In this document: positions 2,894-58,010 of the stretch, piece after piece
How the letters are laid out: each line of letters starts with the position of its first letter
How positions within the stretch are numbered: the stretch's first letter is position 1
Made by a program: the position numbers and the translations under genes
IMG/VR virus record: IMGVR_UViG_2645727839_000001
Location: 32,001 to 96,000 of that record
Strand: one strand, 5' to 3'
From: a virus
Taxonomy: Duplodnaviria; Caudoviricetes
Length of the DNA: 64,000 bases
The notes under the pieces: model-generated
Seen by the model: only the letters and a program-made list of their open reading frames with translations
The model's database searches: none
What the model was told of the DNA's origin: nothing

Positions 2894-2960
2894 TAAAAAA
2901 ATAGGGGCCGCTAAGCCCCGCACACACAAAGAGATCGGAGCGTGTCGCTCGTCTCAATTC
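2894..2960 (-). ncRNA. candidate small RNA 1 (~67 nt) with seed UCUCUUUGUGUGUG antisense to the shared gene leader
   Basis: TATAAG -10 box at 2966-2971; 5' hairpin GAGCG-ACA-CGCUC; seed; terminator GGGGC-UUAGCG-GCCCC followed by UA and a U7 tail. Confidence 0.65.
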
Positions 2961-2994
2961 ATGTTCTTATATTAACAGCGTTACTCAGGTAATT

Positions 2995-3012
2995 AAAGTC
3001 ACCACTGACTAA
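2995..3012. promoter_or_regulatory. 18-bp palindromic operator copy
   Basis: AAAGTCACCACTGACTAA, just upstream of the candidate sRNA-1 promoter. Confidence 0.6.
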
Positions 3013-4040
3013 GTGCCTTGGTGATGCCGGATAAGGCGGAGAAAGCCCCATGGTGTTTGTACGAAACAGGCACTCTACCTATACGGATTTCGCCCCTTTC
3101 TCCGGTTTTCAGGATAAACCACTTTCTCCATCGAGGTGGCGCGATATTTTCTACCTTGGCCAGAAGAGGTAAACCTATTAACCGTGGTTGATTATTCTGG
3201 TGTGCCGCTGACCGATACTGGTCTTCCTATAAGAATTTTCTACGATTTGTTGACACTGGAGCTTAAAAGACCACGATAACTAACACTTTTCCCCCAAATT
3301 CTCCCTATTCTCCCCTTATCTATTACTACATACCTTACTACTACTCTTACCTACTCTATCTCTATAGTTACTACCTAATATCTACTTACTATATCTATAC
3401 CGGAGAGTATTGTTCTTCTTTCTATCCGCAGGTTAAGAGCGAGGTAAAGTGACAATTCATTTTAAGGTTTTTCTCTACTGGTAAACTTTACTTTCAATAT
3501 AGACCTTTATTGTACTTTGCTTATACAAGCCGGAGTTATTGAATTTCTCTGTAAGCCTTGTTGTGTATGGGTTTGTTTGAGTTTTTAGGACAGTTAAACA
3601 ATTTACTTTTTTCTTCTACGGTTTGAGTACATTTGCCTTACTCTTGTTTAGTAGGTTTGAAGAGTATTAGCCATGTTTAGCCAGACCATAAAAGACCGTT
3701 TATCTTGTTTTCTTTTTCTCTCACTGGTGTGATTTTGATTTGAGTTGTTTAGGGTTGGATTGGGGTTAGTTCCGGTTGATTAGCTTTGTTATTAGTTACC
3801 GTGTCACATAGCAGTCACGCCACCAGCTTCTCTTTCTCTCTACTGTTTGAGTACAAATACTGAATCAAGGGAGTAATGTTTCTGTCGCTCTGTTGTCTTC
3901 TGAGAGTCTTGGGGTTGTCTTTTTGATGTCTACAGTCAGCTTTTGATTGAAAAGCTCTTAGAATTGATTTGAGAGAGTGATTTAGATATGAAAAAGGGCT
4001 AACTTTCGTTAACCCTTGTTATTGGTTTTATCTACTGTAA

Positions 4041-14148: not shown

Positions 14149-14616
14149 TTAAGACCAGAGCCCTAAGTCGGATGACGATGAGGCTGGCGCAGCCGTTGAA
14201 ATTTCTTCCTCTACCTCATTAGGTTCGGGTTCGTAGATAGTCTCTTCTTTGACTTCTGGCTCTTTGATTAGAATGTTGCCTTTCTCTACGAATTCCATCT
14301 CATCATCGAGATCTGATTTGGTAAATTGAAGAAGTACATCCTCAAATCCCACGTTCATCTCTTCTTCCGAACGGAATGTATTGGTTAAAGAAACATCTTT
14401 TATCCAATTACCATTCACATTGTTATGAACGAAAAGTGTGAATAACTTTCGGTCTTCCGGTGCAGTTCGAGAATCAGCCTCCCCTCGCCATTCCGCAGAT
14501 ACCATAATGTCGTTATTGCAGTACTCTCGAAAGACTCGGTATTCATCTCGAGCTAGAAGTTTGCGCCACGCTTCTTTCTTAATACGTGCGCCTTTCTTGT
14601 TATAGAACTGGATCAT
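14149..14616 (-). CDS. hypothetical protein, C-terminal GLWS motif
   Basis: ORF; operator copy at 14616-14633 abuts the start. Confidence 0.7.
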   Translation of the reverse strand: MIQFYNKKGARIKKEAWRKLLARDEYRVFREYCNNDIMVSAEWRGEADSRTAPEDRKLFTLFVHNNVNGNWIKDVSLTNTFRSEEEMNVGFEDVLLQFTKSDLDDEMEFVEKGNILIKEPEVKEETIYEPEPNEVEEEISTAAPASSSSDLGLWS

Positions 14617-14727
14617 AAGTCACCCGTTACTTTATTTAGTGAGTGCTTATGTTAATTGCTGAGGAATGGGGATGAAAGGACGGGTATAAAAAAGCCCTAC
14701 ATGAGTAGGGCTTGGTCTTACTGGATA

Positions 14728-15252
14728 TTACATCGACATAATATATTTTTTATTTGAAGCCGACTTTACTTTGATTCTCTGCATCAAGGTGCCACCTTCG
14801 GGAACAATTGAGTCTGAACTTACTTGCCACGTAATGCCCGAGACAATGAAGTACTCACCTGCCGGAACATCTTCAAACTCGAATGAACCTGTAGCGTCAC
14901 ATACGGATACTAGGTTGTAATTAAGAAATTCAGCCGGAGCTTGAGGTGGTGTGCCACCAGCAGAGAAAGGACTTGTTGAGCGAAAGCCCTTAACAGTATT
15001 GCCGTAGATAATGGAAATACGTTCTTCTGAGTAAGGTGATACAGGGACCATATCTATTTGGTAGCCTGCGCATGTTTTAACTTCACCGCCAACGGTACGT
15101 AGGAATGCTTGACCACGCACTGTTGCATCACCTTCTTCTTGTGACCATTCAACGTCTGATGGTGCGAAAGTATTTTGCATTGGGGTAACAGTTGCGCAAC
15201 CTGCAAGGGCTATTGAACCGATCGCTACGGCGATAAGTGATAATTTTTTCAT
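14728..15252 (-). CDS. lipoprotein (transthyretin/carboxypeptidase-regulatory-like fold)
   Basis: Lipobox LAGC; GQAFLRT..G..KTCAG and G.F.F..VPAGEYF; shared leader. Confidence 0.75.
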   Translation of the reverse strand: MKKLSLIAVAIGSIALAGCATVTPMQNTFAPSDVEWSQEEGDATVRGQAFLRTVGGEVKTCAGYQIDMVPVSPYSEERISIIYGNTVKGFRSTSPFSAGGTPPQAPAEFLNYNLVSVCDATGSFEFEDVPAGEYFIVSGITWQVSSDSIVPEGGTLMQRIKVKSASNKKYIMSM

Positions 15253-15324
15253 GGTAATTGTTCTCTTTGTGCTTAGTGTGATGCGAATATTAGAGATTAG
15301 TGGATGGGTTTTCAATACTACAGA

Positions 15325-15429
15325 CACAACAAAGCCGCCCGACTGGGCGGCTTTTATGCGTAGGCCACTACCCTACTGAACAATTAAAATTGTTCTACAC
15401 AAAGAGAAACCACTAAAAGTAGTTTCACC
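15325..15429 (-). ncRNA. candidate small RNA 2 (~105 nt, four hairpins) with seed GUGGUUUCUCUUUGUGUAG
   Basis: Promoter TTGAAT(15459-15464)-17 bp-TATACT(15436-15441); stems GAAACUACU/AGUGGUUUC, GAACAAUU/AAUUGUUC, GUAGG/CCUAC; terminator AAAGCCGCCC-AGUC-GGGCGGCUUU. Confidence 0.7.
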
Positions 15430-15449
15430 AGTGCGAGTATATGCGGTTC

Positions 15450-15998
15450 TTAAGATGCATTCAACCGAAAGTAGCCTAAACGCTCGCCTTCAAAGAGCGA
15501 ACGAGCCAAAACATCAGTGTCATAGTCGGCTCTGTGAGCTGATTCTGGGTCGTAATCCACACCCATAGCCCAACATAACTCTGCTAGATTGGGTACTTTA
15601 CCCATTGAAGTTGCTGTTCTCCCCTCAACCATAGTGTCATAGACTTCAAACTGAGGAACTTCAAAGCCATCAGCCATCAAATTGAAAGCAATGATTGGGA
15701 AATCGAACGAATAGCCATTATGCGCAACGGCATAATCGCACTTCTCAAGAATCTTAATTAGCTTAGGCGCAACCTCTTTGAATGCAGGTTTGCCTTTCAA
15801 ATCATCAGCACTAATGCCGTGTACAACTTGAGCCTTTGGATCGATTGCTTTAGGCGTCCAAATCAATTCGTTCCATGTAGTTCCGACCTGACGCCAACCT
15901 GCTTCTTGCTTGCGGTATACGCCAACAGCAATCTCGATGATCTTATCTTCTTCAACGTTTAAGCCTGTGCTCTCAACGTCCAGAACAGCAACTATCAT
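15450..15998 (-). CDS. DEDDh 3'-5' exonuclease (DnaQ/Pol III epsilon-like)
   Basis: LDVESTG, VAHNGYSFD, HRADYD. Confidence 0.9.
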   Translation of the reverse strand: MIVAVLDVESTGLNVEEDKIIEIAVGVYRKQEAGWRQVGTTWNELIWTPKAIDPKAQVVHGISADDLKGKPAFKEVAPKLIKILEKCDYAVAHNGYSFDFPIIAFNLMADGFEVPQFEVYDTMVEGRTATSMGKVPNLAELCWAMGVDYDPESAHRADYDTDVLARSLFEGERLGYFRLNAS

Positions 15999-16241
15999 TT
16001 ACATCTCCATATTAAGCCAGCGTATTTCAGCGGCTACGTAATCTGAAAGGACTATCATTTTTCGAATCGGTGACAGGTACATCCACTTAATGTGACTACT
16101 GGAAAAGTAGTTTGCTGCGAAGCCACCATCCTCAGAACCGATAGCTTTTTGAATCTCAGCTAATGCCTCATTAAACTCAACACTATCCGTATCGCCTGCA
16201 ACCTGAGCTGCTTGTTTAATTAGTTCATTTAGATTCTTCAC
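15999..16241 (-). CDS. hypothetical protein
   Basis: Translationally coupled ORF. Confidence 0.65.
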   Translation of the reverse strand: MKNLNELIKQAAQVAGDTDSVEFNEALAEIQKAIGSEDGGFAANYFSSSHIKWMYLSPIRKMIVLSDYVAAEIRWLNMEM

Positions 16242-16675
16242 ACCTCAACAAAGCCTCGCTCTAACAACTGAGAGATAAGCTTTAGATAAGCGACATGGCT
16301 CGTTTTTGTTGGGTCATCGGCATCTTCAAAGCTCTTTACCGAATCTTTAGGTTCGCCACCGTCTGAAATCTTGGTCATGACAAAGCTATCCTCAGTCATT
16401 ACTCGTTTCATAATGACCAACATCCCCTTTGTGCGAAAGACTCTTCGCATAACGACAGGTTCGCCATTTTGACTAGCGTGTTCAGATATCCAATCTGTAA
16501 CGTCATCATCAATTAGACCGCACGTTACGAGGTTGATAGCTGTTAGAGATTGATAAAAAGCCTCATCTGACATCATCCCCTTATCGTGACTATTCGCCAT
16601 CTCTGACAAACTCTCGAGGGTTTTGCGGTTCAGCTCTTCTTTTATTGTTGGAGGGGTATCTACATCAGTGGTCAT
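16238..16675 (-). CDS. hypothetical protein
   Basis: ORF with leader variant ACACGAAGAGA; operator at 16693-16710. Confidence 0.7.
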   Translation of the reverse strand: MTTDVDTPPTIKEELNRKTLESLSEMANSHDKGMMSDEAFYQSLTAINLVTCGLIDDDVTDWISEHASQNGEPVVMRRVFRTKGMLVIMKRVMTEDSFVMTKISDGGEPKDSVKSFEDADDPTKTSHVAYLKLISQLLERGFVEV

Positions 16676-16741: not shown

Positions 16742-17380
16742 TTAGTGAGATTGCTTGCCGTCTCTAATTGATTCAGCTTTGCGAAAGCTTTTAAGGATAG
16801 TTCGCATCAAACCATCCATTCTCTCTTCAAAGCCGATAGTCTTTTTGTCTAGCGTATAGCAGGAAAGTTTGGTTGATGGGTCAACGAACAAACCACGAAT
16901 AAGCAGTTCATGTTTGTTCATGTACAAGGGATTCATGACACCTTTGTAATCTTCGTAGACAACAGGTATGCCTTGAGGCACCAAAACCAAGCTAGAGAAA
17001 CGCTTGTTGGCTTCTTTAATGCAAGCCTCTACGTATTGCATCATGCGTTCACTTTGCATTTGGGTCGTTTTGTTGGGGATGTAATCCATCATTGCGTAAG
17101 CCGCCATATCAATAGGCGTTCTGTCAGTGACAAAAGCCTTATGTTGTGACCACACATCAATAGCGCCATCTAAAATCGCCCACTGAATGTTGAGCCGCTC
17201 ATCGAATGAGAGTTTCGCATTAGGTTTTAAACCTGCTTCTTTGAAGATGTTCGATGTACTGGTTTGAGCAAAGGGGAGTTCAGTTCGAAGAGACAGCTCT
17301 TTAGCCAGAGATGTTTTGCCAGTTCTATGAGTCCCGGCTAGTCCAATTGCGAAGTTTGAAAGGTCGTAATTTTTAGTCAT
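16742..17380 (-). CDS. P-loop nucleotide kinase-like protein (AAA_28/dNMP kinase type)
   Basis: GTHRTGKT Walker A and VTDRTPID motif. Confidence 0.75.
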   Translation of the reverse strand: MTKNYDLSNFAIGLAGTHRTGKTSLAKELSLRTELPFAQTSTSNIFKEAGLKPNAKLSFDERLNIQWAILDGAIDVWSQHKAFVTDRTPIDMAAYAMMDYIPNKTTQMQSERMMQYVEACIKEANKRFSSLVLVPQGIPVVYEDYKGVMNPLYMNKHELLIRGLFVDPSTKLSCYTLDKKTIGFEERMDGLMRTILKSFRKAESIRDGKQSH

Positions 17381-17468: not shown

Positions 17469-18179
17469 ATGACTACAGCACAAAGCGTTATCAGAGATAG
17501 ACGTTCGGCAAGAGTGTTCGTGAAAAACCACGACTACGATCCAAACATCATCAGTGAATGCCTCAAGCTTGCTCACCTTGCCCCCAATAGTTCTAACTTA
17601 CAGTTATGGGAGTTTCACCGTGTCACGACAGAAAACAAAAAGGCACTAATGAAACTCGCTTGCCTAAACCAATCGGCTGCAGCGACTTCCAGTGAACTGA
17701 TTGTCTTTGTAGGAACGCCTCAAAGGTGGAAAGCCAGTGTTGAACACCACGCTAGTCGAATTGCAGCCTTGCCAGGTTATTTGGAGAATGATGATTTAGC
17801 CTACGCACACCGATACTTCACTAAGACTGTCCCTTTTAACTATCGCAATGACAGGTTTGGCTTAATGGGGCTAGTTCGTAAGCTTATGAACTTCACGACC
17901 GGATTGTTTAAGCCCATTCCAAGAGAGGTCTTCCGTTCTGATATTCGCGCCACCATTCACAAGAACAACGCTCTAGCCATCATGACCTTTTGTTTAGCCA
18001 TGAAAGAACAAGGTCTTGATACCTGCATAATGGAGGGATTCGATTCAGTTCGTGTAAAGAAAATATTAGGTTTGGATAGCGAAAGCATAATCACCGCAGT
18101 TGTCGCATGTGGCAAAGCTGCGCCAGAGGGGATTTACGGTAATCGCGTAAGATTCCCCTGCCCTATCTTCAAGCATTAA
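17469..18179 (+). CDS. nitroreductase family protein
   Basis: RRSARVF, APNSSNLQLW, GLDTCIMEGFD. Confidence 0.9.
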   Translation: MTTAQSVIRDRRSARVFVKNHDYDPNIISECLKLAHLAPNSSNLQLWEFHRVTTENKKALMKLACLNQSAAATSSELIVFVGTPQRWKASVEHHASRIAALPGYLENDDLAYAHRYFTKTVPFNYRNDRFGLMGLVRKLMNFTTGLFKPIPREVFRSDIRATIHKNNALAIMTFCLAMKEQGLDTCIMEGFDSVRVKKILGLDSESIITAVVACGKAAPEGIYGNRVRFPCPIFKH

Positions 18180-18228
18180 AAAAGGGGCTGTTAACCCCTA
18201 GCTGAAAAGACAAAGAAAAGAGGGGGCA

Positions 18229-18486
18229 CTACTCCCCTTTGGACTCGTTACTGTCCTGTTCTGCGGTTAGAGCTGCGTTTTGTTCACGTAGCTCTTGAAT
18301 CTGTTGGCCTTGGTCTTCGATGTACAAAGCCATTTCTGCCTTTTCGTGGCGATGACCGTTAATCTCGGCTTCAAGAATTTGATTCTTCTTAGCTAGTAGT
18401 GGTAGCTGACGCAATTGATCAACAATCTGTTGGCTTAGTTGAGTTTGCGGTTGTTCTTGTGTTGCTTCTGTAGTTTGTTCTGTCAT
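18229..18486 (-). CDS. coiled-coil hypothetical protein
   Basis: ORF; operator at 18512-18529. Confidence 0.65.
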   Translation of the reverse strand: MTEQTTEATQEQPQTQLSQQIVDQLRQLPLLAKKNQILEAEINGHRHEKAEMALYIEDQGQQIQELREQNAALTAEQDSNESKGE

Positions 18487-29200: not shown

Positions 29201-29563
29201 CTATTCCGGTGCAGTCATGTCGGATAAAGCAGAAGACGTATTGGAGCCTACCTCTTCTGCATAGCTATTCGTTGCCTTGCGAGTTTTGGCGATCTCATCA
29301 AGGATGTTGTTTGGGTTGTGAGGGCTGTATGGATTGGTTGGGTCCATAAGTTGCTCTGCACTTGTTAGTCGCCTTTTTGGCGGCTCACTATAAGAATTCA
29401 AAGATGGTATTTGAAAATCTCGTTTTTTCCTATTTGTTACATTCAACATATTAAGTCTGGTTTCGTTATGGCGTTTACGTTCTGTTAGCCAAGCAATGCA
29501 AAAGAATATATCCAAACCAAGCGTGACAAAGAGCCAGAATGAAAGACCACCTAAAAGTTCCAT
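29201..29563 (-). CDS. hypothetical membrane-anchored protein
   Basis: N-terminal hydrophobic helix. Confidence 0.6.
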   Translation of the reverse strand: MELLGGLSFWLFVTLGLDIFFCIAWLTERKRHNETRLNMLNVTNRKKRDFQIPSLNSYSEPPKRRLTSAEQLMDPTNPYSPHNPNNILDEIAKTRKATNSYAEEVGSNTSSALSDMTAPE

Positions 29564-30261
29564 ACAAACACTCTATCCAACTCAGGCCGACTTGCTCTTG
29601 AGAAGATAGCCGGACTTGTGAAGATTTGCGGGTCTAAGTCCATAAGTGGGGAGTTTTGATGAACAGAGAGATTGCCAACAAGAACAAATGTCTTAACACC
29701 TGCTCTGATCATCTTCTTGTAATCGACACCAAACATGTTGCCGCCACGTTCGTGAGAAGATTCCATGTATTTGTGTGTAACCCAAGAAGCTACCACCACT
29801 TTAGGCTTAAAGTTCTTGAATGCTTTGTTGGCGTCTATCTCTACAACATCTTTGCCGTAGTTCACAGTGGGTTGATGCGCTAGACCATATAGAGCTGCGG
29901 TTGCGTACTTATGATTGTTCTTAGGGTGTTGTTGATAGTTATCAACCATTCGAATACCCAAGCTACGACCATATACCCCGTTACCTGCTCCGATTTCCAT
30001 TGCTCTGGATTTGTCTTCTGGTAAGAAGCTACTGATAAAGTTGATAAGCTCTAAAGACGGGATAGAGTAAAAAGCGTGTTTATGGCAGAAAATTCTTAGC
30101 TTACTTCGTGGTATTTCAGCGAGTACATCCATCGGGAGTACCTTCAACTGCCCTTCTTCATCAAGAAGCAAAGCCTCAACATCGCTAACGTCTTCGGGCT
30201 CTAAAATAGATAGGCTACCAAGCATTGTGGATACTTGATCAAAAAGCTTTTCTGAGTGCAT
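29551..30261 (-). CDS. SAM-dependent methyltransferase-like protein
   Basis: MEIGAGNG motif I; shared leader; operators at 30284 and 30334. Confidence 0.6.
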   Translation of the reverse strand: MHSEKLFDQVSTMLGSLSILEPEDVSDVEALLLDEEGQLKVLPMDVLAEIPRSKLRIFCHKHAFYSIPSLELINFISSFLPEDKSRAMEIGAGNGVYGRSLGIRMVDNYQQHPKNNHKYATAALYGLAHQPTVNYGKDVVEIDANKAFKNFKPKVVVASWVTHKYMESSHERGGNMFGVDYKKMIRAGVKTFVLVGNLSVHQNSPLMDLDPQIFTSPAIFSRASRPELDRVFVWNF

Positions 30262-30466
30262 GTGGTTTCTCTTTGTGTAGTGATAAGTCAGTGATGACTA
30301 ATTACATTATAAAGAAACAGAGTAGGCACTTCTACAGTCAGCAGTGACTAATATAAGATTTTATTGGGAATTTCCAAAAAACCGCAGACGGGAATTTCGT
30401 TTTCTGGGGGTGGTTAGCCCCCAAGATATAAAGAATCTTTGTTGGTTAACAGCTCTAACCTGTCAA

Positions 30467-49194: not shown

Positions 49195-49227
49195 AAAAAG
49201 GGCTTCCGAAGAAGCCCTTTATTTTTT
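49195..49227. terminator. intrinsic terminator; near-identical copy at 49840-49868
   Basis: AAAGGGCTTC-CGAA-GAAGCCCTTT. Confidence 0.75.
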
Positions 49228-49777
49228 AAAGAGATTTGATAGGTTTAGCAGGGACACCCGCTACCACCGTATTGGGCGGTACATCCTTATTTACAACGGC
49301 ACCAGCTGCAACAATTGAATTCTCACCAATAGTTACTCCGCCTAAGATTGTTGCGTTCGCGCCAATCCACACACGGTCACCAATTACAATAGGTAATGAT
49401 TGCTCATAGCCTTCTGAACGCTGAATGGCATCAAGAGGGTGACCAGTTGTGGTAATCACAACGTTAGGCGCAAGCAGTACTGACTCACCGATTGTAACGA
49501 AGTTACCATCAAGAATGGTGCAGCCATGATTTGCATAGAAGTGATCACCTACAATGATATTGCAACCGTAATCGCAATTAAATGGTGATTCTAGGTGTGC
49601 TGTTTTGTTACCAATAAGTTCTGCGGTGATACGCTCACGAACTTGGGAGTCAAAAGCTTGATTTAGTTGGTAACATTTGAATTTTGTAGTGGCTCGCTCT
49701 TCTTCAAGGCTTGTTTCAAAAGCCATGTACATTTCGCCAGTTAACATTTTTTCTCTTTCAGTGTTGATATTCATCAT
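49226..49777 (-). CDS. maa: sugar (maltose/galactoside) O-acetyltransferase
   Basis: [20 protein letters not shown], hexapeptide repeats, VAGVPAK. Confidence 0.88.
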
Positions 49778-49898
49778 AGTGTTTCTCTTTGTGTAGTGAG
49801 TTCTCAGTATATGAGAATAATCAAGGTTACTAAAGATAAAAAAAAAGGACTTCCGAAGAAGTCCTTTTATGACATGAAAGATGTTATGCGTAACTCTA

Positions 49899-54881: not shown

Positions 54882-55172
54882 CTATTGAGCAACTTCGTTA
54901 TAACCAAGCAGCGAGCTTTTGAAGACCGTAAATGGGGTAGGTTTTCCGATCTCTACGGTGATGGTGAAAGCATCGTAACTTTTAAGCTTACCCTTAATCA
55001 CAAGGCCAGAGTTGGCATGAAGTTCAATGTCTGCTTCGCGACGAAGTAGATCTAGCAGGTGAGCATCGTGACCACGAATGCCTTGCTTCTTACGTTCCTG
55101 ACTTCCGTAGTTCTTATGAGCACCTTTGCCCTTGTGGTTCTGAGGAAGGCGACGGTTATTTTTGTTATCCAT
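54882..55172 (-). CDS. hfq: Hfq-like Sm-fold RNA chaperone
   Basis: HDAHLLDLLRREADIELHANSGLVIKGKLKSYDAFTI...TVFKSSL parallels Hfq [37 protein letters not shown]...MVYKHAI. Confidence 0.75.
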   Translation of the reverse strand: MDNKNNRRLPQNHKGKGAHKNYGSQERKKQGIRGHDAHLLDLLRREADIELHANSGLVIKGKLKSYDAFTITVEIGKPTPFTVFKSSLLGYNEVAQ

Positions 55173-55230: not shown

Positions 55231-55929
55231 CTATTCAGCTAAAATTTTCGCTCGAGCGACGGCTTTTTCACCGAACTGTTGAATCGCTTCTGTATGCTTC
55301 AACATTGGGTTTTCGTAAACGTATGCAGCTAACGAGAACTCTGGTCGAGAACTACGCTGTATCTGTCGCATGAGCGATATACGGTGTGCTCTCTGATAAG
55401 GGTGCTCAACGTTATTCTCGATCTGGTAAAAATCATCAGTGCTGACAAGTAGGTTCACCTGTCGCCACTCGTTCCACCTGGTCAAGATGAACTCCACCAT
55501 AGAAATGGCAGACCACGTTTCTGATTCTGCTTTTACCGATTCCGAATACAAGTGACACGGCTTAGGTGGATATGGCCAACAACAAAGATCGGCATATTCC
55601 ATAGCTCTGTGGCACCAGAACTCGTATGGCACACCATGTTTGTCGGCTATCTTTCTAGCTTTCCATAACCCGGTGATTGTTGTCTTTGACTCAAGCAGCA
55701 AGTCACCTTTCTTTAGAACCCTAGCGTTCATACCTATGTAAATGTCGATCTGCTTTTTTAAAGCTGACTTCATTGCTTTTACATACGCATCAGCAAAAAC
55801 TCTGGTTGCTTCAAGTGGGTGCATTAGCCTGTAGTCCCACCACTTTGACTTGTACAGGTCAGCTTCGCCATCTAAGAGGGCAGGGCTGACAGTAATGATT
55901 GTTAGGTGATCTAGTTCCGCACTGTTCAT
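55231..55929 (-). CDS. hypothetical protein heading the hfq-helicase-primase operon
   Basis: 232-aa ORF; operators at 55212 and 55934. Confidence 0.7.
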   Translation of the reverse strand: MNSAELDHLTIITVSPALLDGEADLYKSKWWDYRLMHPLEATRVFADAYVKAMKSALKKQIDIYIGMNARVLKKGDLLLESKTTITGLWKARKIADKHGVPYEFWCHRAMEYADLCCWPYPPKPCHLYSESVKAESETWSAISMVEFILTRWNEWRQVNLLVSTDDFYQIENNVEHPYQRAHRISLMRQIQRSSRPEFSLAAYVYENPMLKHTEAIQQFGEKAVARAKILAE

Positions 55930-56020
55930 TAGTTAAGTCAGTAGTGAGTGATGTTGATATCTTATAGATAGTAGAGTGGTAATGAAAGAGAAGCTGATCT
56001 TAATACCGCGTTATATTTCT

Positions 56021-56119
56021 TGGACTAGGAGAGGGTAAAAATACGTTCTGTATAATATATATCTATCTTTGATAGATATATTAATATAAGGGACTGCGGA
56101 AAAACCCTCTCCTAATCCA
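56021..56119. repeat. ~99-bp palindromic element B (inverted homologue of 11176-11272)
   Basis: TGGACTAGGAGAGGGT...ATATATCTATC-TTT-GATAGATATAT...ACCCTCTCCTAATCCA. Confidence 0.85.
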
Positions 56120-56176
56120 TACTTTAATTTTCTCCGTGAAAAAATATTTGCATTGCCTCATTCTCATCGTTTAGAG

Positions 56177-56194
56177 TAAGTCACTGCTGACTGA
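56177..56194. promoter_or_regulatory. 18-bp operator copy abutting a TTGCCT...TAGAGT putative promoter
   Basis: TAAGTCACTGCTGACTGA. Confidence 0.7.
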
Positions 56195-56240
56195 TTCATA
56201 TAGTGAGCTTGCACTGTATACACACACACAAAGAGAAACG

Positions 56241-56585
56241 ATGGTGAGAACTCGAAGCATACCTCAAGAAGAATTGATAAAGCTTTACGAGTATGAACGT
56301 TCATTATCAAGAAGGCTGCTCGGCTTGGGCGAGAAAATTAAGGTCGCCAGAGAAGCTAATCGATACTCGCAAGAAACAATCGCGGAATGCTTGAACGTAT
56401 CACGCTCCACAGTTAGCGCAATCGAAAGAGGTAAGAGCACTCCTTCTTTGGCGTTATTGTTAAAGATATCGTACATAACCAATCGTCCACTTGATTGGTT
56501 CTTCGATAGAAACATAGATCCCTTAGCGGGGATCAAGTCAATCAAGCTAAACCTGAACAACGGACTCTACGAAATAGAGTACTAG
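56241..56585 (+). CDS. XRE-family HTH regulator
   Basis: LGEKIKVARE...SQETIAE.LNVSRSTVSAIERGKSTPSL. Confidence 0.88.
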   Translation: MVRTRSIPQEELIKLYEYERSLSRRLLGLGEKIKVAREANRYSQETIAECLNVSRSTVSAIERGKSTPSLALLLKISYITNRPLDWFFDRNIDPLAGIKSIKLNLNNGLYEIEY

Positions 56586-56611
56586 CGTCTTACTACACAA
56601 AGAGAAACACT

Positions 56612-57145
56612 ATGGCACTACCACACATTTTACTTTCTGAACTAGAGAAGAAGAGTCAGACAGGCTACGACATAAGCTGTATTTTGATTCGCACACCTCA
56701 CGGGCGTTATTGGCGAGCTAGCCACCAGCAAATTTATCGAGATCTAAACAAGATGCTCGAAAATAAACTGGTAACAGTAAGGCTAGTACCGCAAGTAGGT
56801 AAACCTGACCGTAAGATTTATTCAATTACCAAGCTAGGGAGGGTTGAACTAAGTGAATGGCTAAGTTCACCACCTGAATTGCCTACGTTCCGAGATGAAA
56901 TGGCCTCTCGAATTATGGCTGCGAAAGGTGAGGACATACCGGGTTTGATTGAATCACTTCTCGAAATGGAAAACGAGTGCGAAAAGTACCTAGATGTAGT
57001 CACAGAAAATCGTAAAATGATCGACGAAGCCGACATTTCCAAGTTTGAAAAGACAAAATTCAAAATCATGTTTAACCGAGCAGAAGAGCACTGGTTAAGT
57101 TTTTATAACTGGTCAGTAGAAACTCGCCAATTACTGGTGTTGTAG
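56612..57145 (+). CDS. aphA: AphA-like PadR-family regulator
   Basis: MALPHILL...TGYDI...YWRASHQQIYRDLNKM...PQVGKPDRKIYSIT..G...L.EW...PTFRDE closely follows Vibrio AphA. Confidence 0.8.
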   Translation: MALPHILLSELEKKSQTGYDISCILIRTPHGRYWRASHQQIYRDLNKMLENKLVTVRLVPQVGKPDRKIYSITKLGRVELSEWLSSPPELPTFRDEMASRIMAAKGEDIPGLIESLLEMENECEKYLDVVTENRKMIDEADISKFEKTKFKIMFNRAEEHWLSFYNWSVETRQLLVL

Positions 57146-57299: not shown

Positions 57300-58010
57300 A
57301 TGCACAAAGAGAAAATCACTATCGAGGTTGGCAACCTCCGTATCAACGCACTGGTTGATTCACAATTAACAGCTATCACTAAGCTAGGCCAAATCACTGA
57401 CGTAGAAATCAGTGAGCACCATGAAATCCACAATGTTCTAACCAAAATTGTGCGCTCGAAGATTCCAGAAGAGCTATTGCCACCAACGCAAAAGCAACTT
57501 AATTACGCCAATAACATTGCCAAAGATTTACGAATCGAACTGCCAGAGAAAGCAAAGCGTCGTCAATTAGAATGCGAGATGTTTCTAAACAAACACGCAG
57601 CTATCCATAGCAACCAAGTTACGTTCAAATGCATGATCAAAGATATAATCAAGCCATATTTACCTCGAGCGAGAAAGATAGCTAAAGGTGCTACGGCTAT
57701 CGACATGCTAGAGGAAGGTAAAACCGAAGACCAAGTTCGTAAACATTTTGATGTTGTTAATTGGAGAACGGTTGAGAACTACATCTTAGCGTTTAAAGCA
57801 TTTGACCCAACGGGCCTGAGCGAAGAGACGGCAAACATCGGCTTTCTATCTGTTCTAATTAAAAGCGGTCTAGTTCCCGAAGAGCATTTGGCGTGGGATC
57901 TTGCTCAGATGAACCCAAATCTGAGTGGCGAAACAGATTTCCAAATCTTTAATCCTAAAGTTTTGACGACTCAGATCATGACGGACTGCTGTGATATCAA
58001 GATGCACTAG
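57300..58010 (+). CDS. hypothetical protein
   Basis: PPTQKQLNYA..IA..L motif; 236 aa. Confidence 0.65.
   Translation: MHKEKITIEVGNLRINALVDSQLTAITKLGQITDVEISEHHEIHNVLTKIVRSKIPEELLPPTQKQLNYANNIAKDLRIELPEKAKRRQLECEMFLNKHAAIHSNQVTFKCMIKDIIKPYLPRARKIAKGATAIDMLEEGKTEDQVRKHFDVVNWRTVENYILAFKAFDPTGLSEETANIGFLSVLIKSGLVPEEHLAWDLAQMNPNLSGETDFQIFNPKVLTTQIMTDCCDIKMH

What the first reader, a model, noticed from the sequence alone, without database searches (positions are those of the whole stretch)
15325..15464. Candidate sRNA-2: four-hairpin RNA with its own sigma70-type promoter
Seen: TTGAAT-17-TATACT, with the -35 inside the 3' end of the exonuclease gene. Hairpin 1 is fully paired only on the minus strand (a U-G pair, versus a C-A mismatch on plus). 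An unpaired UCUUUGUGUA lies between hairpins 1 and 2, and a GC-rich terminator follows. It is complementary over 19 contiguous nt to the 30261 gene leader and over 16 nt to the aphA-like (56593-56608) and maa leaders, covering the RBS. Size and four-stem layout recall Vibrio Qrr sRNAs, but I see no Qrr sequence similarity.
Basis: partly seen in the sequence, partly recalled or inferred. Interest (0 to 1): 0.86.

Follow-up and report, generated by a model that had tools for sequence, protein, structure and literature searches.

The report
Phage small RNA against shared ribosome sites
A 115-kb phage carries a likely ~105-base non-coding RNA whose exposed stretch is the exact mirror of the ribosome-landing sequence shared by about twenty of the phage's own genes, so it may switch many genes off at once, but no transcript has yet been seen.

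Summary
That covers the promoter-like site, four hairpins, an unpaired U-rich stretch, a GC-rich terminator, and the 19-nt and 16-nt complementarities.

The main reinterpretation concerns the three "targets". They are copies of one stereotyped translation-initiation region (TIR), CACAAAGAGA, lying 4-12 nt before the start codon.
- 15 of 152 crudely called genes carry it exactly, and 29 of 152 within 2 mismatches.
- The candidate RNA holds the only full inverted copy, with unrelated flanks.

Supporting evidence:
- TATACT, the candidate's -10 hexamer, is 16-fold enriched in intergenic DNA, as expected of this phage's usual -10. This copy has no ORF before the terminator.
- The seed core is unpaired.
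- The phage encodes a divergent Hfq-like protein.
- A weaker second anti-TIR element lies at 2937-2925.

Weaknesses:
- No close relative of the phage was reachable, so there is no covariation.
- No RNA data could be found.
- A cis role, sequestering the next gene's TIR in read-through transcripts, and an inert relic are both live rivals.
- The Qrr resemblance is not supported.

My best reading, at about 0.5, is a trans-acting anti-TIR sRNA: an RNA counterpart of T4 RegA. That would be a new variant of a known kind.

The parts
15459..15464 (-). -35-like hexamer TTGAAT, inside the last codons of the exonuclease gene
   Evidence: sequence
15436..15441 (-). -10 hexamer TATACT, the hexamer enriched in this phage's intergenic DNA. 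No operator palindrome is associated with it and no ORF follows it.
   Evidence: TATACT occurs 14 times in intergenic DNA (0.49/kb) against 7 times in genic DNA (0.03/kb).
15322..15429 (-). Predicted transcript of about 105 nt. Both ends are inferred from the -10 and the terminator and are not measured. It contains no AUG.
15406..15426 (-). Hairpin 1: 9 pairs including one U.G, which would be a C-A mismatch on the plus strand. Its 3' arm is part of the anti-TIR sequence.
15395..15413 (-). Anti-TIR seed, the 19-nt exact reverse complement of the leader of gene 29551-30261. The core at 15402-15396 is unpaired with p > 0.9.
15378..15395 (-). Hairpin 2, a perfect 7-bp palindrome with a 4-nt loop
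15360..15376 (-). Hairpin 3, a 5-bp stem that differs between the MFE and centroid structures
15331..15354 (-). Hairpin 4, an intrinsic terminator with 10 pairs (7 G-C) and a U/G-rich tail. It could also terminate plus-strand transcription (TTTTAT tail).
15450..15998 (-). Upstream gene: RNase_T / DnaQ-like 3'-5' exonuclease, the last gene of the operon that starts at 16675
15287..15315 (-). Separate promoter-like site TTGAAA-17-TAATAT for the downstream gene, placed after the terminator
14728..15252 (-). Downstream gene (phrog_14789, function unknown). Its TIR at 15271-15262 carries the CACAAAGAGA core and is the partner in the cis-pairing rival.
30262..30280 (-). Best predicted target: the leader of gene 29551-30261, 19 of 19 complementary and ending at the ATG
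56593..56608 (+). Predicted target: the leader of the PadR/AphA-like regulator 56612-57145, 16 of 16
49781..49796 (-). Predicted target: the leader of the Mac/hexapeptide acetyltransferase 49226-49777, 16 of 16
2925..2937 (-). Second, weaker anti-TIR copy (1 mismatch in 12), lying between a small hairpin and the terminator at 2919-2904. A possible sibling sRNA, but it is also predicted to pair with a CACACAC stretch beyond the terminator.
54882..55172 (-). Phage-encoded divergent Hfq-like protein of 96 aa, a possible chaperone for the RNA

Best explanation
The 197-nt spacer between the exonuclease gene and the next gene encodes a non-coding RNA of about 105 nt on the minus strand.

How it is made (inferred):
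- It is made from an orphan TTGAAT-17-TATACT promoter, and possibly also as the 3' end of the exonuclease operon transcript.
- It ends at the GC-rich terminator 15354-15331.

How it would act (inferred from the known behaviour of base-pairing sRNAs):
- Between its first two hairpins it exposes a pyrimidine-rich seed. With the 3' arm of hairpin 1, this seed is the exact complement of the phage's stereotyped translation-initiation region (consensus CTACACAAAGAGAAAC, then 2-6 nt, then ATG).
- The seed would pair with the Shine-Dalgarno region of roughly 18-29 phage mRNAs, mostly first genes of early or regulatory operons. These include an HTH regulator, a PadR/AphA-like regulator, an HU-like protein and an acetyltransferase.
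- Pairing would block ribosome entry.
- This would amount to a global translational shut-off or dampener of non-structural genes, an RNA counterpart of the T4 RegA protein. The phage's own Hfq-like protein or the host Hfq might assist.

Shown here: the sequence features, complementarity, fold, seed accessibility, the -10 hexamer statistics and the Hfq-like fold.
Inferred only: that the RNA is made, where its ends lie, that it pairs in vivo, the direction of the effect, and any role for Hfq.
For: (1) Complementarity is exact over 19 nt to one leader and over 16 nt to two more (E = 4.8e-4 for the 19-mer). 18 of 152 TIR windows have at least 10 contiguous Watson-Crick pairs with the seed, against 2 of 645 windows from gene interiors.

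(2) The motif is a real, stereotyped TIR.
- The exact 10-mer occurs 21 times, against about 0.2-0.3 expected per strand.
- 15 copies are in sense orientation directly before a called start, 3 are inside genes in sense, and 1 is at the start of ORF 57300-58010.
- Only 2 copies are inverted relative to local genes, and both lie in non-coding DNA.

(3) The inverted copy matches the family consensus (16 nt) far better than it matches the TIR of its cis neighbour (11 nt). Its flanks share nothing with any leader cassette, since the matches end at the motif borders. This fits selection on the motif better than a recent duplication.

(4) TATACT is 16-fold enriched in intergenic DNA (14 copies, 0.49/kb) over genic DNA (7 copies, 0.03/kb). 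This copy has the best -35 of the 14, and by my reading of the contexts printed it is the only minus-strand intergenic copy with a terminator and no ORF following it.

(5) The architecture is typical of base-pairing sRNAs. There is a 5' hairpin beginning about 3 nt from the inferred start. The seed core is unpaired (p > 0.9) and opening 10 nt costs 1.1 kcal/mol. The 19-bp duplex is worth -30.3 kcal/mol against an 11.7 kcal/mol opening cost. A terminator hairpin closes the RNA.

(6) Strand asymmetry favours the minus strand: -45.7 against -34.8 kcal/mol, and the U.G pair in hairpin 1 is a mismatch on the plus strand.

(7) The phage encodes an Hfq-like protein.
- A profile of the protein and its 6 distant relatives hits Hfq or Hfq-like chains, or a short cyanobacterial chain deposited without an Hfq name, in 37 of 37 PDB matches (best E = 1.8e-9).
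- 6 of 7 family members match Pfam Hfq.
- The AlphaFold model has one helix plus five strands and pLDDT above 90 in its core.
- All Foldseek rows listed are Hfq, with TM up to 0.91.

(8) The TIR contains three consecutive A-R-N triplets (AAG AGA AAC, read directly from the sequence). The abstract of PMC4104026, seen in the listing, names A-R-N repeats as what Hfq binds.

(9) The leader of the RNA's own operon (gene 16675) differs from the perfect target at two positions, and both changes keep pairing as G.U (row 16675).
Against: - No transcript evidence exists. No sequencing run could be listed (which is no evidence either way).
- There is no conservation or covariation. No relative closer than about 44% amino-acid identity was found in any collection.
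  - The nearest exonuclease homologue contig, L060, has only a 73-nt spacer and no such element.
  - SSU5's 421-nt spacer shows no analogue.
- The generic promoter scan is not above shuffles.
- The terminator's U-tract on the minus strand is interrupted (UUUGUUGUGU) and is at least as good on the plus strand.
- Structure is strong on both strands, and four other spacers score as well or better.
- Pyrimidine-rich tails of other terminators resemble the anti-TIR at 2 mismatches in 12, for example at 18208-18219, so weak anti-TIR matches are not informative.
- A->G changes in leaders are equally expected from Shine-Dalgarno selection, so the G.U-compatible substitutions (12 of 20 in the core) do not discriminate.
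- In a read-through RNA the same seed is predicted to pair in cis with the next gene's TIR.
- The window's own Hfq-like protein scores below Pfam's cut-off (18.3 against 27 bits), and nothing links it to this RNA.
Confidence: 0.5

Rival explanations
1. Inert relic. The spacer holds only the terminator(s) of the exonuclease operon plus stabilising hairpins. The inverted TIR copy would be a leftover of a rearrangement between the phage's repeated promoter/operator/TIR cassettes, for example a lost plus-strand gene, and would have no present function.
For: - The phage has many dispersed copies of the cassette that could recombine.
- Three genes with the motif lie on the plus strand (17469, 56241, 56612), so inverted copies exist to recombine with.
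- On the plus strand the local layout, a 7-bp palindrome 2 nt before the motif, mimics the usual cassette layout of palindrome then TIR.
- The four bases ACTA that follow the consensus leader also follow the motif here, one base further on, without the ATG.
- No conservation or expression data exist.
Against: - The 19-mer is undecayed, yet both flanks are unrelated to any leader, with no promoter or operator remnant on one side and no gene start on the other. A single crossover inside the motif would leave leader-type flanks.
- A TATACT -10 hexamer of the type enriched in the phage's intergenic DNA sits exactly where a transcript containing the inverted motif would start.
- The palindrome next to the motif is not the operator palindrome.
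- Only 36 nt remain between the motif and the exonuclease stop codon, and they hold no ORF remnant.
Confidence: 0.22
2. Cis-acting translational insulator. The anti-TIR acts only within read-through transcripts of the exonuclease operon, where it pairs with the TIR of the next gene (14728-15252) about 125 nt downstream and keeps it untranslated. Transcripts from that gene's own promoter, which starts after the terminator, lack the anti-TIR and are translated.
For: - Folding 15430-15235(-) places the anti-TIR in a long-range helix with the downstream TIR in both the MFE (-63.6 kcal/mol, z = -6.26) and the centroid structure.
- The downstream gene has its own promoter-like site, located after the terminator.
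- The second anti-TIR copy (2937-2925) also lies just upstream of a TIR-bearing gene, 2531-2851.
Against: - Contiguous complementarity to the cis TIR is 11 nt, against 16 to the consensus and 19 to a gene 15 kb away. Selection for cis pairing should favour the neighbour.
- A strong terminator already separates the two, so few read-through transcripts are expected.
- At the second locus the anti-TIR is predicted to pair with a CACACAC stretch next to the terminator and not with the downstream TIR.
- This model does not explain the orphan TATACT promoter.
Confidence: 0.13
3. A plus-strand or DNA-level element. The motif copy would work as a decoy leader RNA that titrates a TIR-binding factor such as the Hfq-like protein, or as a DNA site for a protein that recognises the motif in either orientation.
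For: - On the plus strand the copy is a perfect leader, and the A-R-N-rich part stays unpaired in the plus-strand fold.
- The terminator can work in both directions.
- Decoy RNAs of phage origin are known: AgvB mimics mRNA targets, in passages of PMC12197685 seen.
Against: - The scan found no promoter-like site on the plus strand in 14500-16500.
- The plus-strand terminator lies upstream of the motif, so transcripts arriving from the left would stop before reaching it.
- No start codon follows at a usable distance.
- The fixed 4-12 nt distance of the exact-core motif from start codons points to an RNA-level role in translation and not to a DNA site.
- The plus-strand fold is 11 kcal/mol weaker.
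Confidence: 0.07

Closest known systems
c4 antisense RNA of the phage-plasmids P1 and P7
   Same: It is a phage-plasmid-encoded small RNA that binds complementary sequences around a ribosome-binding site of a phage mRNA and blocks translation. Its complementary stretches are presented by the RNA's secondary structure (passage of PMC12197685 read).
   Different: c4 acts on one mRNA (ant), whereas the seed here matches a TIR shared by 15-29 genes. No Rfam match to any family, c4 included, reached gathering score, and c4 is not among the 22 matches at E <= 10. That c4 is cut from a longer transcript is recalled and was not checked here.
T4 RegA translational repressor
   Same: It has the same proposed logic. 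One phage-encoded factor competes with the ribosome at the translation-initiation regions of about 30 early and middle mRNAs (passages of PMC3014915 read).
   Different: RegA is a 122-aa protein whose binding sites are poorly conserved A+U-rich sequences. Here the factor would be an RNA and the sites a nearly invariant 10-16-mer.
VpdS sRNA of the Vibrio phage VP882, and other Hfq-dependent phage sRNAs such as PreS
   Same: These are trans-acting, Hfq-binding sRNAs encoded by a temperate phage, and they change both phage and host mRNA levels (passages of PMC12197685 read).
   Different: No sequence relation was tested or seen. VpdS uses the host Hfq, whereas this phage has its own Hfq-like gene. 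The regulon predicted here is defined by a shared phage TIR. That VP882 is itself a phage-plasmid is recalled from memory.
Vibrio Qrr sRNAs
   Same: Similar size (about 100 nt), a multi-hairpin layout, and a seed that pairs with 5' leaders, including that of an AphA-type regulator.
   Different: There is no Rfam Qrr match even at E <= 10. The promoter-like site is sigma-70 type, whereas Qrr genes depend on sigma-54 and LuxO (recalled). The 'aphA-like' pairing is simply the shared TIR.
3'-UTR-derived sRNAs with an internal promoter (the MicL/DapZ type; recalled)
   Same: The promoter overlaps the 3' end of the upstream coding sequence, and the RNA shares that operon's terminator.
   Different: Those are host sRNAs acting on host targets. 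No processing or promoter data exist here.

Membership tests
Qrr sRNA (Rfam Qrr family) | Match to the Qrr covariance model, including its conserved seed block | tested here: not met
   No Qrr row appears among the 22 matches at E <= 10 over 15200-15520, and nothing reaches gathering score in the whole window.
Qrr sRNA (Rfam Qrr family) | A sigma-54 (-24/-12) promoter with LuxO sites (feature recalled from memory) | tested here: inconclusive
   A sigma-70-type site lies at the expected position. No dedicated sigma-54 scan was run.
c4 antisense RNA (Rfam C4 family) | Match to the C4 covariance model | tested here: not met
   It is absent from the lists.
Trans-acting base-pairing sRNA (a functional class, not a sequence family) | A discrete transcript with its own promoter or a processing site, and a terminator | not testable with these tools
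   Only sequence signals are available. No sequencing run could be listed.
Trans-acting base-pairing sRNA (a functional class, not a sequence family) | An accessible seed complementary to unlinked mRNAs at or near the ribosome-binding site | tested here: met
Trans-acting base-pairing sRNA (a functional class, not a sequence family) | Conservation or covariation of seed and structure in relatives | tested here: inconclusive
   No sufficiently close relative was retrievable.
Hfq (Pfam PF17209), for ORF 54882-55172 | Score over the Pfam gathering cut-off | tested here: not met
   The window's own protein scores 18.3 bits against a 27-bit cut-off. Of the 7 family members, 6 match at E <= 0.01, the best at 3e-10.
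Hfq (Pfam PF17209), for ORF 54882-55172 | Sm fold: an N-terminal helix plus a five-stranded bent sheet | tested here: met
   AlphaFold model with H35-44 and five strands, core pLDDT above 90. All listed Foldseek PDB rows are Hfq, with TM by target up to 0.91. The profile-to-PDB search gave 37 matches, all Hfq, Hfq-like or a short cyanobacterial chain with no Hfq name.
Hfq (Pfam PF17209), for ORF 54882-55172 | Sm2 motif [YF]-K-H-A-[IV] (proximal-face RNA-binding residues; motif recalled) | tested here: inconclusive
   The lysine is invariant (K85). The histidine is kept in 2 of 7 members and is serine in the window's protein.
SSU5-like phage-plasmids (context of the element) | Gene content and synteny with SSU5 and its relatives | tested here: inconclusive
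   The exonuclease is at most 44% identical to those of about 110-kb phages and plasmids. The local order kinase-like / hypothetical / exonuclease matches SSU5. Plasmid maintenance genes were not examined.

The most novel reading that the evidence does not exclude
The phage carries a self-contained riboregulatory module with three co-evolved parts:
- a nearly invariant TIR on about 15-29 early and regulatory genes;
- one or two sRNAs whose seeds are the exact complement of that TIR;
- a phage-encoded, highly divergent Hfq that has no PHROG family.

Together these would impose a global, RNA-based translational shut-off of the phage's non-structural programme, the RNA equivalent of T4 RegA. That could set the timing of the early-to-late switch, or silence the phage while it persists in a carrier or plasmid state.
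Probability: 0.3. Interest if true: 0.85.

Novelty: new variant of a known kind. Interest (0 to 1): 0.68.

Why it matters
Phage-encoded sRNAs are known, but the described ones act on one or a few phage or host mRNAs (review PMC12197685, passages seen).

If this one is real, three things follow.
- One short RNA could gate a whole class of phage genes because those genes share a single ribosome-landing sequence. That would explain why the TIR is kept almost invariant across unrelated genes.
- It would be an RNA solution to a problem that T4 solves with the RegA protein (PMC3014915).
- Together with a phage-borne Hfq homologue, for which my two phrase searches listed no paper whose title or abstract opening describes one, it would be a rare case of a virus bringing both the guide RNA and the chaperone.

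The prediction is easy to test with reporter fusions and compensatory mutations. The motif and anti-motif pair also gives a simple computational signature to look for in other phages.

Tried and rejected
Known RNA families. Rfam at gathering score found 0 matches in the whole window. A permissive scan of 15200-15520 gave only terminator-driven matches, all below half their gathering scores. No tRNA or tmRNA was found.

Close relatives, sought for covariation. None was close enough.
- blastn against phages and plasmids found nothing.
- Exonuclease protein scans gave at best 31% identity in viral contigs, 35% over a comparable length in genome contigs and 44% in metagenome contigs (L060).
- tblastn against phages and plasmids gave at most 44%. 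The downstream protein gave at most 36%.
None of the fetched loci that I tested by tblastn is a close relative.

Checks in more distant kin.
- L060 has only a 73-nt spacer.
- SSU5's 421-nt spacer after the exonuclease has no promoter or terminator hits and no Rfam match.
- In 100 of the 112 kb of Pseudomonas phage phiK7B1 no stereotyped TIR exists (top 9-mer upstream of 3 of 135 genes), so the anti-TIR test cannot be applied there.

Expression. No RNA holder was listed and no run of any kind was listed.

Whole-RNA duplexfold target ranking was rejected as meaningless, because long spurious duplexes gave a median of -27 kcal/mol. It was replaced by contiguous-match counts with a control.

Other chaperones. 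No CsrA or ProQ/FinO matches in the phage.

The Hfq-like protein.
- The word-based homology search found only the protein itself.
- It has no PHROG family.

The 1.1-kb ORF-poor region 2930-4040 has no Rfam match at E <= 0.1.

Literature.
- Searches for sRNAs in SSU5-type phage-plasmids and for anti-Shine-Dalgarno phage sRNAs acting on early genes listed nothing describing such a system.
- The general phage-sRNA search listed only known single-target or host-directed cases.
- I saw only search listings and abstract openings, except for the passages of PMC12197685 and PMC3014915. Supplements were not opened.

Full report
**Context**

The window is bases 32001-96000 of a 115,468-bp virus record. 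Genes around the finding all lie on the minus strand:
- an AAA/thymidylate-kinase-like gene, 16742-17380;
- a gene of unknown function, 16238-16675;
- a small ORF, 15999-16241;
- an RNase_T/DnaQ-type 3'-5' exonuclease, 15450-15998;
- the 197-nt spacer, 15253-15449;
- a gene of unknown function (phrog_14789), 14728-15252.

The exonuclease is at most 44% identical to those of about 105-120-kb phages and plasmids of the SSU5 / Nickievirus / RHEph10 type. The local gene order resembles SSU5. The element is therefore a distant member of that broad group. Its host is unknown.

**Check of the observation**

- The promoter-like site TTGAAT-17-TATACT lies at 15464-15436(-), with the -35 inside the exonuclease ORF.
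- The minus-strand RNA from about 15429 to about 15322 folds into four hairpins: -45.7 kcal/mol, z = -6.69, and 0 of 200 shuffles fold as well.
- The plus strand is weaker at -34.8 kcal/mol and z = -5.72. Its version of hairpin 1 is interrupted where the minus strand has a U.G pair.
- Seven nucleotides between hairpins 1 and 2 are unpaired with probability above 0.9.
- The last hairpin, 15354-15331, is a 10-bp, 7-G-C terminator.
- The complementarities are exact: 19 nt to 30280-30262, 16 nt to 56593-56608 and 16 nt to 49796-49781. The genes behind these are, respectively, a viral protein of unknown function with only a lead to a methyltransferase-like fold, a PadR/AphA-type regulator and a Mac/hexapeptide acetyltransferase.

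**What the "targets" really are**

The three leaders are not independent. The 16-mer CTACACAAAGAGAAAC and its core CACAAAGAGA form a stereotyped translation-initiation region.

The exact 10-mer occurs 21 times in the genome, against about 0.2-0.3 expected per strand:

| Location of the exact 10-mer | Copies |
|---|---|
| Sense orientation, directly before a called start | 15 |
| Inside genes, sense orientation | 3 |
| First codons of ORF 57300-58010 | 1 |
| Inverted relative to the local genes | 2 |

- 15 of 152 crudely called genes carry the core exactly, with the core ending 4-12 nt before the start. 29 of 152 carry it within 2 mismatches.
- 18 of 152 TIR windows pair with the candidate's seed over at least 10 contiguous nt, against 2 of 645 control windows from gene interiors.
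- The motif-bearing genes are mostly first genes of operons in the non-structural part of the genome. They include an HTH regulator, the PadR regulator, an HU-like protein, a CobS/AAA-type ATPase, an OmpA-like beta-barrel protein, a DUF4262 protein and the acetyltransferase.
- Many are preceded by a sigma-70-type promoter and by the palindrome AGTCAC-N4-GTGACT.
- Two small contigs of a distant relative, L100 and L101, share the Hfq-like gene and its neighbours. They also show CACACA..AGAGA sequences before two genes.
- 100 kb of phiK7B1 show no stereotyped TIR. The trait therefore belongs to this lineage and not to the wider group.

**The candidate in that light**

The spacer holds the only full inverted copy of the TIR.
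- Identity with the leader family stops at the motif borders, and neither flank resembles a leader cassette.
- No start codon follows on the plus strand.
- The copy matches the family consensus (16 nt) and one distant gene (19 nt) much better than it matches the TIR of the neighbouring gene (11 nt).

On the minus strand the copy is embedded in what looks like a complete small transcription unit.
- The -10 hexamer TATACT is 16-fold enriched in intergenic DNA (14 copies, 0.49/kb) over genic DNA (7 copies, 0.03/kb).
- The ten minus-strand intergenic copies include promoters of motif-bearing genes. Among the 14 contexts printed, the copy at 15441 has the best -35.
- By my reading of those contexts, that copy lacks the operator palindrome and is the only minus-strand one followed by a terminator and no ORF.
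- The inferred start lies about 3 nt before hairpin 1.
- Energetically, opening the 10-nt core costs 1.1 kcal/mol. The full 19-bp duplex is worth -30.3 kcal/mol against an opening cost of 11.7 kcal/mol.

**Additional context**

The phage encodes a 96-aa protein (54882-55172, just upstream of a DnaB-like helicase) that is a very divergent Hfq.
- Alone it is sub-threshold: Pfam 18.3 against 27 bits, and PDB phmmer E = 0.03 with 19 of 21 hits being Hfq.
- Full HMMER against 1.84 billion representatives found six relatives.
- Their profile matched 37 PDB sequences, all Hfq, Hfq-like or a short cyanobacterial chain with no Hfq name (best E = 1.8e-9).
- 6 of 7 members match Pfam Hfq.
- The AlphaFold model built on the alignment has one helix plus five strands with core pLDDT above 90.
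- All listed Foldseek matches are Hfq.
- It has no PHROG family.
- The TIR itself contains three A-R-N triplets, the kind of repeat Hfq is reported to bind (abstract of PMC4104026, seen in the listing).
- Nothing shown here links this protein to the RNA. It only makes an RNA-based circuit more plausible.

A second inverted TIR copy, with 1 mismatch in 12, lies at 2937-2925(-). It sits between a small hairpin and a good terminator (2919-2904, followed by a T-rich run) and has a weak promoter-like sequence upstream. It could be a sibling sRNA. However, its fold is only moderately stable (z = -2.8), and in a longer RNA it pairs with a CACACAC stretch beyond the terminator. I treat it as weak support.

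**Mechanism proposed**

I propose a minus-strand sRNA of about 105 nt whose seed occludes the Shine-Dalgarno region of the shared TIR and so dampens translation of many early and regulatory genes at once.
- Its promoter carries no operator palindrome. The RNA could also arise from the 3' end of an early operon.
- It would therefore accumulate as early transcription proceeds and feed back negatively. This is the role RegA plays in T4, where one factor competes with ribosomes on about 30 mRNAs (PMC3014915).
- Established: the sequence features, complementarity and accessibility.
- Inferred only: that the RNA is made, its ends, pairing in vivo, the sign of the effect and any dependence on Hfq.

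**Rivals**

(i) Inert relic of a rearrangement among repeated cassettes. The plus-strand layout of palindrome then TIR resembles a cassette, but the undecayed motif with unrelated flanks and the well-placed TATACT argue against it.

(ii) A cis-acting insulator. In a read-through RNA the anti-TIR pairs with the next gene's TIR in both the MFE and the centroid fold. Against it, a strong terminator intervenes, complementarity is better to distant genes, and the orphan promoter is left unexplained.

(iii) A plus-strand decoy or DNA site. No plus-strand promoter was found, and the plus-strand terminator lies upstream of the motif.

**Comparison with known systems**

- It works most like the c4 RNA of P1/P7, which occludes a phage mRNA's ribosome-binding site (PMC12197685).
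- In scope it is like RegA.
- It belongs to no Rfam family.
- The Qrr comparison fails the only membership test that could be run.

**Limits**

There is no expression evidence: none could be listed. There is no covariation, because all searches for close relatives failed and the tools may withhold near-identical records.

**Verdict**

The most likely reading, at about 0.5, is a trans-acting anti-TIR sRNA. That would be a new variant of a known kind (phage-encoded sRNAs that occlude ribosome-binding sites). Its scope is unusual, covering a shared TIR on 10-19% of the genes, and a phage-encoded Hfq-like protein sits beside it. Interest 0.68.

Noticed in passing
window 54882-55172 (-): A phage-encoded, very divergent Hfq-like protein of 96 aa with a basic N-terminal extension, directly upstream of a DnaB-like helicase. 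It has only six distant relatives among 1.84 billion representatives and no PHROG family. The same gene order (262-aa protein, Hfq-like, helicase) occurs in contigs L100 and L101.
   Followed up: yes
for example window 30296-30283, 36846-36831, 47393-47378, 16708-16693, 13127-13113, 53363-53349 (all -), 56194-56207 (+); also L060:528-543: The palindrome AGTCAC-N4-GTGACT, often AAGTCAC..GTGACTT, recurs either in the -35/-10 spacer or just downstream of the -10 of many promoters. It is also present after the exonuclease gene of the distant relative L060. It is probably the operator of a phage repressor. The constant arms with a free centre fit protein recognition better than an RNA hairpin.
   Followed up: partly
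whole genome; for example window 49811, 47412, 16726, 29083, 722 (-): TATACT is enriched in intergenic DNA more strongly than the canonical TATAAT (0.49 and 0.25 per kb, against 0.03 and 0.05 per kb in genic DNA). It is often preceded by CT or TCT.
   Followed up: partly
window 2930-4040: About 1.1 kb has no minus-strand ORF of 30 aa or more apart from one 30-codon ORF without a ribosome site. It contains direct repeats of 26 nt (3606-3631 and 3830-3855, 81% identical) and a related 13-mer at 3468. On the minus strand these read as purine-rich, leader-like sequences. They could be very small genes, a plasmid-type origin or partition site, or a long non-coding RNA. No Rfam match at E <= 0.1.
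   Followed up: partly
window 2896-2975 (-): A second anti-TIR element: a small hairpin, then AUCUCUUUGUGUG, then a terminator with a long U run. It lies about 55 nt upstream of the TIR of gene 2531-2851. It may be a sibling sRNA or part of an extended terminator stem.
   Followed up: partly
window 56241-57145 (+) and 55231-55929 (-): An HTH_3 (Cro/CI-type) gene and a PadR/AphA-like gene form a plus-strand pair that diverges from the minus-strand replication block. Both carry the stereotyped TIR, and the 311-nt divergent spacer 55930-56240 is the second most structured in the genome. This is a likely lysis/lysogeny or maintenance switch region.
   Followed up: no
window 57300-57315 (+): The motif core overlaps the ATG of ORF 57300-58010. 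Either this ORF starts further downstream or the motif lies inside its first codons. The start of this gene needs checking.
   Followed up: no
window 18170-18230 (-): Tandem hairpins with T-rich tails, a double terminator. Its tail resembles the anti-TIR at 2 mismatches in 12, which warns that weak anti-TIR matches arise from ordinary terminators.
   Followed up: no
L098 (SSU5) 3550-3970: SSU5 has a 421-nt unannotated spacer after its exonuclease gene. On the opposite strand it appears to contain a small unannotated ORF with a hydrophobic product. This is read by eye and was not verified.
   Followed up: no
window 15378-15395 and 15254-15271 (-): The 8-mer GAACAATT of hairpin 2's 5' arm recurs in the leader of the downstream gene, right after its TIR core. 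Hairpin 2's 3' arm is therefore also complementary to that leader. This may be chance or part of a cis interaction.
   Followed up: partly
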